Source: Escherichia coli (lineage in GTDB: Bacteria; Pseudomonadota; Gammaproteobacteria; Enterobacterales; Enterobacteriaceae). From it: a stretch of DNA of 64,000 bases. Of the stretch, positions 1 through 3,000 are shown in pieces; the first letter of the stretch is position 1; every line of letters begins with the position of its first letter. The DNA lies in the NCBI RefSeq assembly GCF_003018235.1, contig NZ_CP027437.1, one strand, 5' to 3'. The position numbers are program-made.

Positions 1-3000
1 CTGTCAAACTGATGGACGCAAACGAACGCGTAACCAGCTGTATCCAATCACCGCCGAAGAGATAGAACCGACCAGGATACCGAGTTTCGCCCAGTTAATC
101 AGTTCTGGATCTACGCTACCAAAGGCCAGGCTGGCAATAAAGATAGACATAGTAAAACCGATACCGCACAGGATCCCCACCGCCATAATTTGCTGATAAG
201 TCGTTCCCTCAGGCAGATGCGCCAGTTTCAAACGCAGCGCCAACCAGCAGAACAGACTAATCCCCAGCGGTTTGCCAATCAGCAAGCCAGCGATGATCCC
301 CAATGGCAGAATGGAGGTCAAGCCATCCAGCGTGACGCCTTGCAGTGAAACGCCAGCATTAGCAAATGCAAACAGCGGTAAAATCAGATACGCCACCCAC
401 GGGTGCAACACATGCTCCAGTCGCTTCGCTGGAGAACGCCCATGCTTCTCTTTCAAAGGAATAAAGAAGCCGACAATTACCCCCGCCAGGGTTGCGTGAA
501 CCCCCGATTTCAACACCGCAGTCCACAACACCACGCCAACCAGAATATAGACGCCCGTGCGGCGTACACCACACAGATTCAATACCGCGAGTACCGCAAT
601 TGCTACAGCCGCGACACCAAGAGAGGCCATCGATAAGTCATTAGTGTAGAACAATGCGATGATAATGATGGCCCCAAGATCGTCGATAATAGCCAGAGCC
701 ATCAAAAAGATCTTCAGCGCTAACGGAACACGACTTCCCAACAGCGCCAGCACACCAAGTGCAAAAGCAATGTCAGTAGCCGCCGGGATCGCCCACCCTT
801 CGCGGGTAATCGGATCGGCATAGTTAAAGGCCAGATAGAGCAATGCCGGCACAATCATCCCACCAATAGCGGCGATAACTGGAAATGCAGCCTGGCGTAA
901 GCTGGCTAGCGATCCTTGCATCAGTTCACGTTTAACTTCCAGACCGACTAACAGGAAAAATACCGCCATCAGCGCGTCATTTATCCATAACAGCATGTTT
1001 TTGTTGATTTCGAGTGAACCAACCCGGAGCTGAACCGGCGTCTCCAGAAAGTCGTGATACCATCCACTGGTTGCGCCGCTGTTGGCCATAATCATCGCCA
1101 GGATAGCGGCAATGATAAGAATAATGCCTCCCGAGGCATCACTGCTAAAGAATCGATGCAGATGTTTCACTTTTTATTTCTCTTTCAGGTGAATAGATCG
1201 TTTTTACTATCTTACCCCGCACGAATCATCGTTAAAATCAGATTATAGTGTAGGAATAATTCGTTTTTTACGAACCATTGAAGGATTTGTGCCATCAGCG
1301 ATAAGATGAGTTTTTGACGGCTGTAAGCGCTCACGAGTGACCCTAAGCCTAAGCCCTGATGATCATAGCTTAAGGTGAGGATTCCTGAGGGATTAATTAG
1401 GAAAAGTAATAATAAAATCGCACTGTGCTATAGCTGTTTATTCCAGAGATGCTTGAAAATATCTAATGTTGAGACAACATTGGCAGGCGACATTCGGTTT
1501 AATGAGGGTAGAAAGGGATGAGCCTCCAGGAAGTTGATAAAACGAGTCGCGCTTGCCAACGTCGAATACCGCATTTCATTTGCTTTCTTGTTTCCTGTAA
1601 GGTTACAAACAGCCATTGAATAATCACGGGCGGAAAATGCACGCCAGACATTATTTCTCACGCCACCACTCAAAAATAACCGCGGCGGCGTATCATAATG
1701 AGTCGTTTTCTCGCCGCGTTCTTTCACAAAGGAAATATGGCACCGGCCTTGATGAATATGCTGTAAATTAGCCATCAGACAACCGCCTAATATAAAGCAC
1801 TCGTGATCAAGGTAGTGTTGAATATTTATAGAATATGCTTCAGTCAGTGCTCTAACCAGTTCAAAATGGCGATACGCCGGAAGAACCGGTTTCACCAGCA
1901 TCCCCGGATCGTTTTGATGTAATATCGCCCGACCATAATCAATATCAAATAAGGTATCACGCCGCATAGTAAGTAACTCCTTGCGTTGTACGTGATGCGC
2001 CAGTGTACCTGGAGACAAACGCTCTTCATAACTTGATGCATATTGATAATGCGACTCTACCGCTGATGAAGAATAATTCGTTGAAATAGCGACGACTCTA
2101 CCGCTTTGTTCTTCTGCGGTAACAAGACTATAAAGATAGTTGTTACTACCGTTAAACTTTACGCGAAAAGCGCGGGTAGATAGAGAAATATCAGAAGCAG
2201 AAGAATACTGGCAACTTTCTTTATAGTTTACTTCCCGGGCTAGTTTCATCAACTCACGGTTAAGCCCTGTGCTATTAAGAAGTAATAATTTACGGATATC
2301 TGCAAGTGAAGCGCCTTGATCAATCATCAATGCTAAATGTGTTCTTCGTGGCGTTGTATTTACATGATCCAGAGTGATAAAAGTTCTGGAACAATGATGA
2401 CAATACATTCTCCTCTGCCCCTGAGCTGAATAGCCATACTTTTTCAGAGATGTGCTTCCGCAAGCTGAACATTGTGGAACCAACCCTCTCCATGAATGAT
2501 TAACACGATTACGATAAATATTAAGAGATCGTTCAGATATCACAGGAAACAAGTAACCGCATTCCCGACATAAAATATTTTTGCCTTGTGCAATATAATC
2601 CTGGCTATTCAACAACCCCAGGTTTTTGCATCCTGGTGTTTTGCAACAATCAACATTTACGTTGGTAAACATATTCACTCCCTGCGAATACCCGGATATT
2701 ATCGTCATATGTCAAAGAAAAGAACCTGATTCAATGTGTAACATTGAATCAGGCGGGCATGGCCCTGAAAGGCATACATTACATATATTATGGTTATCAG
2801 ATTAGCCCCAGGTTACCGCTTCCGGTTTATCACCTCTGGCTTTCATTAATGAATCATTATCAATATCGGCTTTATACTTTAAGAACTTACCATACATTTG
2901 TTTTTCAATGTCTGGATTTTTACCTATCTGATTAATGGTCTCAAAACGATCGGTTTTGAGGTTGTATAGGTACTTTGGCTTATTGTTACGATCGATGATC

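What the first reader, a model, noticed from the sequence alone, without database searches (positions are those of the whole stretch)
1428..2672. Cys-rich protein with a transposase-type zinc-ribbon/HTH N-terminus fused to an unassigned domain
The N-terminal 140 residues contain four CxxC pairs, including a GxxRxYCxxCxxxF element like the IS1 InsA / IS1595 zinc ribbon, followed by an HTH-like stretch. The C-terminal 270 residues carry scattered Cys/His but no domain I can name. It could be a domesticated transposase acting as regulator of the adjacent module, a degenerate IS that delivered the island, or something new. Its annotated first ATG abuts the upstream terminator hairpin and lacks a ribosome-binding site; the second ATG has GGGAG, so the start was reassigned.
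Basis: partly seen in the sequence, partly recalled or inferred. Interest (0 to 1): 0.65.

Follow-up and report, generated by a model that had tools for sequence, protein, structure and literature searches.

The report
Dead transposase turned sulfatase-operon regulator
This E. coli gene encodes a complete but catalytically dead IS1-like transposase that is fixed as the last gene of a sulfatase operon, and comparative evidence suggests it now works as that operon's dedicated, CRP-partnered transcription factor, a kind of regulator not yet described in bacteria.

Summary
The ORF (1428-2672, minus strand, 414 aa) is real, and the reassigned start is correct. Its N-terminus has two four-Cys zinc ribbons and an HTH homologous to IS1 InsA. 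The "unassigned" C-terminus is an RNase H-like transposase core that has lost both catalytic Asp residues.

It is not an IS. It has no terminal repeats and occurs exactly once, always chromosomally, in 1171 of 5426 complete E. coli genomes. It is under purifying selection (dN/dS about 0.1).

In other Enterobacteriaceae the order is always Tsx-like channel, Ser-type sulfatase, anSME, then this gene, at four different chromosomal sites. Escherichia has lost the anSME.

Distant relatives (20-25% identity) pair instead with a periplasmic 5'-nucleotidase-like gene or a NupC-type nucleoside transporter.

All four subfamilies share one promoter layout. A subfamily-specific "CAAC-box" starts 57-60 nt upstream of the centre of a CRP site (window: box 5232-5253, CRP-like site 5188-5203).

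Best reading: a domesticated transposase acting with CRP as the module's transcription factor. DNA binding is inferred, not shown. The family is uncharacterised.

The parts
1428..2672 (-). CDS of the protein ('X'), 414 aa, including the stop codon at 1428-1430
   Evidence: ORF list. All homologues start at this ATG. PGAP annotates the same CDS. dN/dS 0.08-0.12 within Escherichia.
2678..2682 (-). Shine-Dalgarno GGGAG of X
   Evidence: Read from the sequence. The block ATTCGCAGGGAGTGAAT is also conserved in front of X in Salmonella and Klebsiella.
2559..2645 (-). Zinc ribbon 1 (C10, C15, C35, C38)
   Evidence: C35 and C38 are invariant and C10 and C15 at least 90% conserved in 42 superfamily members. 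Beta-hairpins in the model.
2391..2471 (-). Zinc ribbon 2 (C68, C71, C91, C94), InsA/IS1595 type
   Evidence: NCBIfam NF050000 above cut-off. hhalign to IS1 InsA. Pfam Zn_ribbon_InsA hit in 6 of 42 members.
2214..2351 (-). Helix-turn-helix region (residues 108-153)
1431..2201 (-). RNase H-like (DDE-transposase-fold) domain without the two catalytic Asp (residues 158-414)
2724..2754 (-). Conserved intrinsic-terminator-like hairpin between the sulfatase gene and X, followed by a T-run
   Evidence: Terminator scan. RNAalifold over 6 lineages: 18 pairs, 6 with compensatory changes. In other genera it lies between the sulfatase and anSME genes.
2802..4295 (-). Ser-type (SSPSR) periplasmic sulfatase, first partner gene
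   Evidence: ORF. Sulfatase families. Near-identical to PDB 3ED4. dN/dS 0.02-0.03.
4315..5076 (-). Tsx/OmpK-like outer-membrane channel, first gene of the operon
   Evidence: PGAP name OmpK. Pfam Channel_Tsx in orthologous loci.
5162..5167 (-). Candidate -10 hexamer TATACT
   Evidence: It starts 28 nt downstream of the centre of the CRP-like site. This puts that site near -40.5, a class II position. The block is conserved in three Escherichia lineages.
5188..5203 (-). CRP-like site TGCGATCTCCATCACG
   Evidence: 8 of 10 core matches. The orthologous site in Scandinavium is a perfect TGTGA-N6-TCACA.
5232..5253 (-). 'CAAC-box' GACACACTTTTTGAAACACGAT, candidate operator of X
   Evidence: Rank 3 of the whole 64-kb window with a PWM built without Escherichia, and rank 1-2 in six other loci. 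It is the top shared motif in an unbiased search (87 vs shuffled maximum 81). Its start lies 57-58 nt from the CRP centre in 8 of 9 loci.
1417..5459 (.). Whole variable segment relative to E. coli K-12, which has 112 unrelated nt here
   Evidence: blastn against the MG1655 region.

Best explanation
The protein is a domesticated, catalytically inactive descendant of an IS1-like transposase. It keeps the full transposase architecture: two Zn ribbons, an InsA-type HTH and an RNase H-like core.

Its most likely role is pathway-specific transcription factor of the operon it belongs to (Tsx-like channel, Ser-type sulfatase, anSME lost in Escherichia, then X).

Proposed mechanism:
- The Zn-ribbon/HTH head binds the CAAC-box. 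The box starts 57-58 nt upstream of the centre of a CRP site, so its centre lies about 47 nt upstream of that centre, near -88 (46-47 nt in 8 of 9 loci).
- X and CRP-cAMP act together on the promoter, most simply as co-activators in the manner of a class III CRP promoter.
- The dead RNase H-like domain serves for oligomerisation and/or effector sensing.
- X is made at low level by read-through of the conserved terminator after the sulfatase gene, so it feeds back on its own synthesis.

Shown here: homology, fold, loss of the Asp residues, immobility, purifying selection, synteny, and the conserved box-CRP architecture.

Inferred: that X is the protein that binds the box, the sign of regulation, and the effector.
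For: 1. DNA-binding head. hhalign of the superfamily profile to IS1 InsAB' gives 96.5% probability (E 9.5e-10) over X 64-145 = InsA 4-88. NF050000 scores above its cut-off. Of the eight ribbon Cys, five are invariant and three are at least 90% conserved in 42 members.

3. Not mobile. One chromosomal copy in each of 1171 E. coli genomes and none on plasmids. No terminal repeats or target duplications. dN/dS 0.08-0.12.

4. Fixed partnership. The order channel-sulfatase-anSME-X, same strand with gaps of 8-27 nt, holds in Salmonella, Klebsiella, Scandinavium and three further lineages. These occupy four different chromosomal sites and go down to 33% identity.

5. Relatives sit where regulators sit.
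- Divergent (about 135 nt) from a periplasmic 5'-nucleotidase-like gene in E. coli, Salmonella and Citrobacter.
- Divergent from nupC-type transporter and nucleoside phosphorylase genes.
- Directly downstream of the 5'-nucleotidase-like gene in 21 of 23 Vibrionaceae loci.

6. A cis-element travels with the family. The distance from box start to CRP centre is:
- 60 nt in 21 of 22 Vibrionaceae loci;
- 60 nt in 3 of 3 enteric-paralogue loci and 2 of 2 nupC-type loci;
- 57-58 nt in 8 of 9 sulfatase-type loci, and 47 nt (one helical turn less) in the ninth.

7. Specificity of the box. Its sequence differs between X subfamilies. It is unique within each locus and beats shuffled controls.

8. Natural experiment. 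In Salmonella the channel gene is inverted, and each of the two divergent promoters carries its own box and CRP-like site at the same spacing.

9. Autoregulatory layout. In the divergent arrangements the box abuts X's own start codon, 5-10 nt away.
Against: No binding experiment exists, and the link between X and the box rests on co-occurrence only.

A PWM of the sulfatase-type box does not reliably find the Vibrio box (rank 1 in 1 of 22 loci). The boxes are therefore related in position and loosely in sequence (CAAC... G.AAC), but they are not demonstrably one motif.

The box scores poorly in leave-one-out scans in Salmonella and locus L006 (ranks 16 and 18).

The E. coli CRP-like site is imperfect (8 of 10).

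A terminator separates X from the promoter in the dnaJ-nhaA lineages, so how X is expressed is unclear.

Strictly conserved polar residues in the C-terminal domain (R238, H269, H290, E291, N199) could form a non-canonical active site rather than an effector pocket.

Model confidence is modest in parts (pLDDT below 50 at 223-242 and 338-349). I could not inspect coordinates, so the assignment of the lost Asp positions rests on secondary structure plus alignment.
Confidence: 0.6

Rival explanations
1. It is an insertion sequence transposase, active or decaying, that delivered the sulfatase island.
For: N-terminal homology to IS1 InsA and weak hits to IS1, IS1249 and IS256 N-terminal models. Transposase fold of the C-terminus. 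The segment 1417-5459 is absent from K-12. Databases name some copies 'IS1 family transposase'.
Against: - No inverted repeat with arms in both flanks and no target duplication at the gene or island borders.
- Exactly one copy per genome in 1171 E. coli genomes, never on plasmids. Phage and plasmid hits are mislabelled chromosomal records.
- dN/dS about 0.1 over dS about 1.
- The same gene order is kept in six genera-level lineages.
- Both catalytic Asp are missing across the superfamily.
- NF033558 scores 27.8 bits against a cut-off of 100.
- No DDE Pfam hit in 42 members.
Confidence: 0.04
2. It is an accessory factor for sulfatase maturation or export. For example, it could be a Cys-rich chaperone or adaptor that presents the unfolded Ser-type sulfatase to the anSME, or supplies or repairs its Fe-S clusters.
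For: It lies immediately downstream of the anSME (gaps of 8-27 nt) in every non-Escherichia member seen. A 27%-identical relative lies convergent with an anSME gene. Family-specific Cys and His residues in the C-terminal domain (C292 and C298 invariant, C311 nearly, H286, H312) are conserved.
Against: - It is retained intact and under purifying selection in all Escherichia lineages that have lost the anSME.
- Superfamily members serve loci with no sulfatase or anSME at all, such as 5'-nucleotidase-like or nupC genes.
- C292 and C298 are not conserved outside the sulfatase subfamily.
- The conserved part is a nucleic-acid-binding head homologous to InsA.
- There is no radical-SAM or SPASM signature.
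Confidence: 0.08
3. X has a nucleic-acid-directed function other than classical transcription control. It could be an RNA-binding or anti-termination factor acting on the conserved intra-operon terminator or the 85-nt leader. It could also be a non-canonical nuclease or recombinase using the conserved H269/H290/E291/R238 cluster. In this reading the CAAC-box belongs to a different, unlinked regulator.
For: - RNase H-like fold with several invariant polar residues.
- A conserved terminator with covariation directly upstream of anSME-X.
- A conserved leader with a six-codon mini-ORF.
- Vibrio promoters also carry a LacI-type palindrome, showing that other regulators act there.
Against: - The terminator and leader are specific to the sulfatase subfamily, whereas the box-CRP spacing is the one feature shared by all four subfamilies.
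- The box sequence changes with the X subfamily rather than staying constant, as expected for a paralogue-specific binder and not for a global factor.
- No invertible segment or repeats were found.
Confidence: 0.18

Closest known systems
IS1 InsA (transposition inhibitor and transcriptional repressor of IS1) and the InsAB' transposase
   Same: Residues 64-145 align to all of InsA, Zn ribbon plus HTH (hhalign 96.5%). The domain order Zn ribbon-HTH-RNase H-like core is the same as in InsAB'. From established knowledge, InsA is itself a DNA-binding repressor that recognises the IS1 ends next to its own gene. In the divergent X loci the box likewise abuts the X start codon. The IS1 ends and many boxes share a CCAAC(T) core. 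This is a lead only.
   Different: - X has an extra N-terminal Zn ribbon and a single ORF with no -1 frameshift.
- Its C-terminal domain is about 100 residues longer and not alignable by sequence to InsB.
- Both catalytic Asp are absent.
- X has no terminal repeats, is single-copy, and is syntenic with metabolic genes.
DDE transposases and retroviral integrases of the RNase H-like fold (ISCth4/IS256-Mutator, Tn5, Mos1, TnsB, HIV integrase)
   Different: Sequence identity is 4-12%. There is no conserved acidic residue in b1 or after b4. The protein belongs to no Pfam DDE family.
Transposase-derived transcription factors of eukaryotes (for example FHY3/FAR1 from Mutator-like elements). This comparison rests on my own knowledge.
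   Same: A whole transposase is kept, including a catalytically dead core. The DNA-binding head is reused for gene regulation, and the gene is fixed at a locus under purifying selection.
   Different: Those are eukaryotic and come from other superfamilies. I found no bacterial example of a host regulator family of this kind in the searchable literature.
Class III CRP-dependent promoters and CytR-CRP promoters of the nucleoside-scavenging regulon (deoP2, cdd, tsx, nupG). This comparison rests on my own knowledge.
   Same: A CRP site near -40.5 plus a second factor site about 50 bp further upstream at a fixed helical phase. The target genes are of the same physiological theme: Tsx-type channel, NupC-type transporter, nucleoside phosphorylase, periplasmic nucleotidase.
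   Different: The upstream site is not a CRP site and does not match the CytR octamer. Its sequence varies with the X paralogue. The protein is unrelated to the CRP and LacI families.

Membership tests
IS1 family transposase (InsAB') | InsA-type N-terminal Zn ribbon followed by an HTH | tested here: met
   NF050000 scores 31.8 bits against a cut-off of 28. hhalign 96.5%, E 9.5e-10 over InsA 4-88.
IS1 family transposase (InsAB') | DDE catalytic domain (DDE_Tnp_IS1) with conserved Asp, Asp, Glu | tested here: not met
   NF033558 scores 27.8 bits against a cut-off of 100, covering the N-terminal part only. No alignment to the InsB part. No DDE Pfam hit in 42 members. Only E291 is conserved as acidic.
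IS1 family transposase (InsAB') | Terminal inverted repeats and target-site duplication | tested here: not met
   No repeat pair with arms in both flanks. The island borders compared with K-12 show no duplication.
IS1 family transposase (InsAB') | Mobility: several copies, varying positions, presence on plasmids | tested here: not met
   1171 genomes carry exactly one chromosomal copy each, with 0 on plasmids. The gene lies at the same locus in all Escherichia loci examined.
IS1 family transposase (InsAB') | Two overlapping frames joined by a programmed -1 frameshift | tested here: not met
   X is one uninterrupted 414-codon ORF, unlike insA/insB of IS1A.
IS1595 family transposase | Zn_ribbon_IS1595 (PF12760) plus DDE_Tnp_IS1595 | tested here: not met
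   PF12760 gives i-Evalue 0.42 only, with 0 of 42 members at E <= 0.001. No DDE_Tnp_IS1595 hit.
RNase H-like (DDE transposase/integrase) fold | b1-b2-b3-a1-b4-a2-b5 core structurally superposable on transposases or integrases | tested here: met
RNase H-like (DDE transposase/integrase) fold | Catalytic acidic triad | tested here: not met
   S165/T166 sit in b1 and K261-P262 after b4 (P262 is 95% conserved). Only the third position (E291) is kept. The positions were assigned from alignment plus predicted secondary structure, not from coordinates.
anSME / radical-SAM SPASM maturases | CxxxCxxC radical-SAM cluster motif and SPASM domain | tested here: not met
   The Cys positions contain no CxxxCxxC. 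No Radical_SAM or SPASM hit. The true anSME of the cassette is a separate gene in other genera and is absent from the window.
Bacterial one-component transcription factor (functional class) | Sequence-specific DNA-binding domain | tested here: met
   InsA-type Zn ribbon and HTH. HTH structural matches.
Bacterial one-component transcription factor (functional class) | A cognate operator at the promoters of linked genes | tested here: inconclusive
   A conserved, locus-unique box at fixed distance from a CRP site exists in all four subfamilies. That X binds it is not shown.
Bacterial one-component transcription factor (functional class) | Demonstrated DNA binding and an effect on transcription | not testable with these tools
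   This needs EMSA or footprinting, ChIP and reporter assays.

The most novel reading that the evidence does not exclude
X belongs to an undescribed family of gamma-proteobacterial transcription factors (Enterobacterales, Vibrionales, Psychromonas) born from a complete IS1-like transposase. Family members work obligatorily with CRP from an operator held at a rigid 57-60-bp distance from the CRP site, and that operator possibly descends from the element's inverted repeat. The family controls periplasmic scavenging modules: Ser-type sulfatase with a Tsx-like channel, 5'-nucleotidase-like enzymes, and NupC-type nucleoside transporters. The dead RNase H-like core is reused as the signal-sensing or oligomerisation domain.
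Probability: 0.5. Interest if true: 0.75.

Novelty: new variant of a known kind. Interest (0 to 1): 0.62.

Why it matters
Domestication of whole transposases into host regulators is well documented in eukaryotes but hardly at all in bacteria. Here about 45 clusters (at 50% identity) of one family show it, with a concrete and testable operator and a fixed geometry relative to CRP.

It would give a regulator and a promoter logic to a variable sulfatase module. That module is carried by about a fifth of complete E. coli genomes (1171 of 5426 carry the X gene), including ST131 and ABU 83972, and by Salmonella and Klebsiella. Its substrate and role in the gut are unknown.

It would also correct a widespread mis-annotation ('IS1 family transposase', 'cytoplasmic protein', even 'lactate dehydrogenase').

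Finally, it exposes an oddity worth following. All Escherichia examined keep a Ser-type sulfatase under strong purifying selection after losing the cassette's own maturase.

Tried and rejected
- Pfam, PHROGs, PADLOC and PDB sequence searches gave nothing for the C-terminal domain. The PDB profile hits are only C2H2-finger look-alikes of the Cys pairs.
- hhalign to IS1 InsAB' does not extend into the DDE part.
- The search for related loci with the whole superfamily alignment failed because no stretch was conserved enough. I used the Vibrio subgroup instead.
- The Vibrio-box PWM does not give above-background hits in the sulfatase promoters, and the reverse test also largely fails. I therefore do not claim one common motif. 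I claim only a common position and a loose CAAC...G.AAC pattern.
- The IS1 inverted repeats score at background with the Vibrio PWM (9.8). The shared CCAAC(T) core is kept only as a lead.
- I considered the box as a second CRP site, a CytR octamer, a DeoR half-site or a -35 hexamer. None fits across lineages by inspection, but these were not tested formally.
- No anSME remnant exists in the window.
- The plasmid and phage hits turned out to be chromosomal records filed in those collections.
- Literature searches found no description of the family.
- One look-up (P0057) was not on record.
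Full report
**1. The observation**

The window is an E. coli-type chromosome. On the minus strand it carries nhaA (4-1170), the target ORF (1428-2708, or 1428-2672 from the second ATG), a sulfatase (2802-4331), a Tsx/OmpK-like channel (4315-5076), the hok/sok locus, dnaJ and dnaK (sok by Rfam).

All 26 aligned homologues start MF.. at the second ATG, and RefSeq annotates the same 1245-nt CDS. GGGAG sits five nt upstream of it.

A 14-bp hairpin with a T-run (2724-2754) lies just upstream of the first ATG.

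The N-terminus holds four Cys pairs: C10/C15, C35/C38, C68/C71 and C91/C94. Three are CxxC and one is Cx4C. The motif GxxRxYCxxCxxxF is present.

So the description is right, apart from 'four CxxC'.

**2. What the protein is**

NCBIfam recognises only the second ribbon (IS1_IS1595_Zn, 31.8 bits against a cut-off of 28). The IS1 transposase model reaches 27.8 bits against a cut-off of 100, and covers only residues 80-160. Pfam finds nothing significant.

A profile of 42 superfamily members aligns residues 64-145 to the whole of IS1 InsA, ribbon plus HTH (96.5%, E 9.5e-10). It does not align to the InsB (DDE) part.

An AlphaFold model from 26 homologues (pLDDT 76.5, pTM 0.80) shows two ribbons, a three-helix HTH (pLDDT about 90-96), and then b-b-b-a-b-a-b plus helices.

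That core is dead:
- Across 42 members the only position that is always acidic is E291, on the helix after b5.
- The expected first Asp position in b1 is Ser/Thr.
- The position after b4 is K-P, with P262 95% conserved.
- None of the 42 members hits any DDE Pfam family.
- The invariant or near-invariant residues are instead R238, H269, H290, N199, Y211, Y246, W339, W343 and N411.

**3. It is not an insertion sequence**

No inverted repeat has arms in both flanks. The variable segment relative to K-12 is 1417-5459, and its borders show no duplication.

The gene is present in 1171 of 5426 complete E. coli genomes. Each has exactly one copy, always chromosomal and never on a plasmid. There are two allele classes, at >=95% and 80-90% identity.

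Hits in the plasmid and phage collections are chromosomal records filed there.

Between the window, a second E. coli lineage and E. albertii, dN/dS is 0.08-0.12 at dS of about 1. For comparison, the sulfatase gives 0.02-0.03.

**4. Gene neighbourhood**

The order Tsx-like channel, sulfatase, anaerobic sulfatase maturase (radical SAM/SPASM; TIGR03942), then X holds in all of these lineages:
- Salmonella, Klebsiella and one unnamed lineage, at the dnaJ-nhaA site;
- Scandinavium;
- a metagenomic enterobacterium;
- a 33%-identical relative.

In Salmonella the channel gene is inverted. Elsewhere all four genes share one strand. X follows the maturase after 8-27 nt. These lineages occupy four different chromosomal sites. 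A 27%-identical relative lies next to an anSME gene.

All Escherichia examined lack the anSME, and none is encoded anywhere in the window.

The spacer shows a clean deletion. The terminator that follows the sulfatase gene in other genera is kept, and so is the block ATTCGCAGGGAGTGAAT that precedes X. The hairpin shows 6 of 18 pairs with compensatory changes.

**5. The wider family**

An exhaustive profile search of 1.84 billion representatives finds 516 hits. About 45 are full-length clusters of 400-500 aa. Foldseek finds full-length structural relatives at 15-25% identity in Enterobacter, Serratia, Proteus, Vibrio, Photobacterium and others.

Their contexts differ in gene content but not in kind:
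- In 21 of 23 Vibrionaceae and Psychromonas loci, X lies directly downstream of a 520-aa periplasmic metallophosphatase/5'-nucleotidase-like gene.
- In E. coli KE47, Salmonella and Citrobacter, a 22-26% paralogue lies between metF and metL. It is divergent by about 135 nt from a gene of the same enzyme family.
- Another subgroup is divergent from genes for a NupC-type transporter and a nucleoside phosphorylase.
- The Salmonella sulfatase island also carries such a nucleotidase-like gene and two arylsulfotransferases.

**6. A cis-element travels with the family**

Upstream of the Vibrio nucleotidase gene, a 20-nt element (ACCAAC[A/T]CAwwwGG[A/T]AAC) is the only strong PWM hit in each 17-kb locus. 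It scores 18-28 in most loci (two weaker sites score 14-15), and the next-best hit in a locus never exceeds 16. Its start lies exactly 60 nt from the centre of a TGTGA-N6-TCACA (CRP-type) site in 21 of 22 loci, although the sequence between is not conserved.

The enteric paralogue has ACCAACGATTT..GGTCGTTGAT 60 nt from a perfect CRP site in 3 of 3 loci. The nupC-type locus has ATCAACTCAAAACGG 60 nt from CGTGATTGCGATCACA. In both cases the box abuts the start codon of X.

For the sulfatase subfamily, an unbiased seed search over seven promoter lineages ranks a box (consensus ACAACAyTTTTcTGACACCTG) first. It scores 87, 86 and 83 of 120, against a shuffled-top mean of 78.4, sd 1.3 and maximum 81. 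The CRP-like site ranks next.

With leave-one-lineage-out PWMs, the box ranks as follows:
- rank 1 of the whole locus, both strands, in four lineages;
- rank 2 in two lineages;
- rank 3 of the entire 64-kb window;
- ranks 16-18 in two lineages.

Box start to CRP centre is 57-58 nt in 8 of 9 loci and 47 nt in Scandinavium.

In Salmonella the channel gene is inverted, and a second box faces it at the same distance from a second CRP-like site.

In the window:
- the box is at 5232-5253;
- the CRP-like site TGCGATCTCCATCACG is at 5188-5203;
- a TATACT hexamer at 5162-5167 places CRP near -40.5.

The box sequence differs between X subfamilies, and cross-subfamily PWMs mostly fail. This fits paralogue-specific binders better than one global factor, but it also limits the claim of a single motif.

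**7. Interpretation**

Shown:
- an InsA-type DNA-binding head;
- a transposase fold without the two Asp residues;
- immobility;
- purifying selection;
- invariant partnership with periplasmic hydrolase and channel or transporter genes, in both operonic and divergent arrangements;
- a conserved, locus-unique element at fixed helical distance from a CRP site wherever a family member is encoded.

Inferred: X binds that element and controls the promoter together with CRP. The geometry recalls class III CRP promoters and the CytR-CRP promoters of nucleoside-scavenging genes (my own knowledge). The dead core would act as an oligomerisation or effector domain. In the divergent loci X would autoregulate.

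Rivals and my estimates:
- an IS transposase, essentially excluded;
- a sulfatase-maturation accessory factor, unlikely given the Escherichia and non-sulfatase members;
- another nucleic-acid function with the box belonging to a different factor, not excluded, about 0.2.

**8. Comparison and novelty**

The protein is a homologue of IS1 InsA/InsAB' in its head and a structural member of the RNase H-like transposase fold. It fails the defining tests of an IS1 or IS1595 transposase: catalytic triad, ends, mobility and frameshift.

Databases call it 'IS1/IS1595 family N-terminal zinc-binding domain-containing protein', 'cytoplasmic protein', 'IS1 family transposase' or even 'lactate dehydrogenase'.

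I found no paper on it.

I rate it a new variant of a known kind: a domesticated transposase used as a regulator. Its interest is moderately high because the operator, the spacing rule and the CRP partnership are directly testable.

Noticed in passing
window 2802-4295 (sulfatase) and 2673-2801 (spacer); loci L011, L012: The sulfatase is Ser-type (SSPSR), which needs an anSME. All Escherichia lineages examined have cleanly deleted the cassette's anSME, yet they keep the sulfatase under strong purifying selection (dN/dS 0.02-0.03). Which enzyme matures it is open. The protein is near-identical to PDB entry 3ED4.
   Followed up: partly
window 2724-2754 (-); L007 6675-6765, L001 6687-6785, L044 3417-3519: An intrinsic-terminator-like hairpin directly after the sulfatase gene is conserved across genera, with 6 of 18 pairs showing compensatory changes. 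A small conserved GGGC...GCCC hairpin precedes it. It probably sets a low anSME and X level or acts as an attenuator. It matches no Rfam family.
   Followed up: partly
window 5119-5139 (-): The roughly 85-nt leader of the channel gene contains a six-codon mini-ORF. It is conserved in three Escherichia lineages with three different stop codons: MNYLMY-TGA, MNCLVY-TAA and MNYLMY-TAG. This looks like a translated leader peptide.
   Followed up: no
window about 5265-5285 (-); L045, L006, L004 promoters: A third shared promoter element lies about 22 nt upstream of the CAAC-box. It reads AAATCAATAAGTTA or TATCAATAACTTA, which fits the IHF consensus WATCAANNNNTTR. The E. coli copy (AAATCAATGAGTG) is imperfect.
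   Followed up: no
L017, L025, L027, L031-L034, L036, L038 (between box and CRP site): Many Vibrionaceae nucleotidase promoters carry a LacI-family-type palindrome GCAAACGTTTGC (PurR- or CytR-like) between the CAAC-box and the CRP site. This suggests purine or nucleoside control of the same promoter.
   Followed up: no
L001 404-4599 and 9376-11091: The Salmonella version of the island is larger. It has two arylsulfate sulfotransferase genes and a 5'-nucleotidase-like gene, and its channel gene is inverted. L006 and L045 also have an arylsulfotransferase gene or fragment after X.
   Followed up: no
L039 7670-8477 (Vibrio hepatarius DSM 19134): The box and CRP site are followed after about 330 nt by only the C-terminal third of X, and the nucleotidase gene is missing. 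This looks like a deletion remnant, in contrast to the intact locus of another V. hepatarius strain, L026.
   Followed up: no
AFDB hits (Q8Z9N7 S. Typhi 327 aa, C0Q4H7 S. Paratyphi C 247 aa, S. Dublin 375 aa, and others): Several Salmonella entries are shorter than the 417-aa norm. This may reflect pseudogenes in host-restricted serovars, or it may be a gene-calling artefact.
   Followed up: no
window 5460-5865 vs K-12: The hokC/mokC/sokC locus is present (sok by Rfam at 5540-5692). The IS186 copy that K-12 carries between dnaJ and hokC is absent here.
   Followed up: partly
records NZ_CP141089.1, NZ_CP134663.1, CP099174.1, NZ_CP092913.1 (plasmid collection); AFYI01000001.1, OR845643.1 and others (phage collection): Records of megabase size, or carrying core genes such as metF, katG and metL, are filed as plasmids. 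Bacterial contigs are filed as phages. Hits in these collections must not be read as evidence of mobility.
   Followed up: yes
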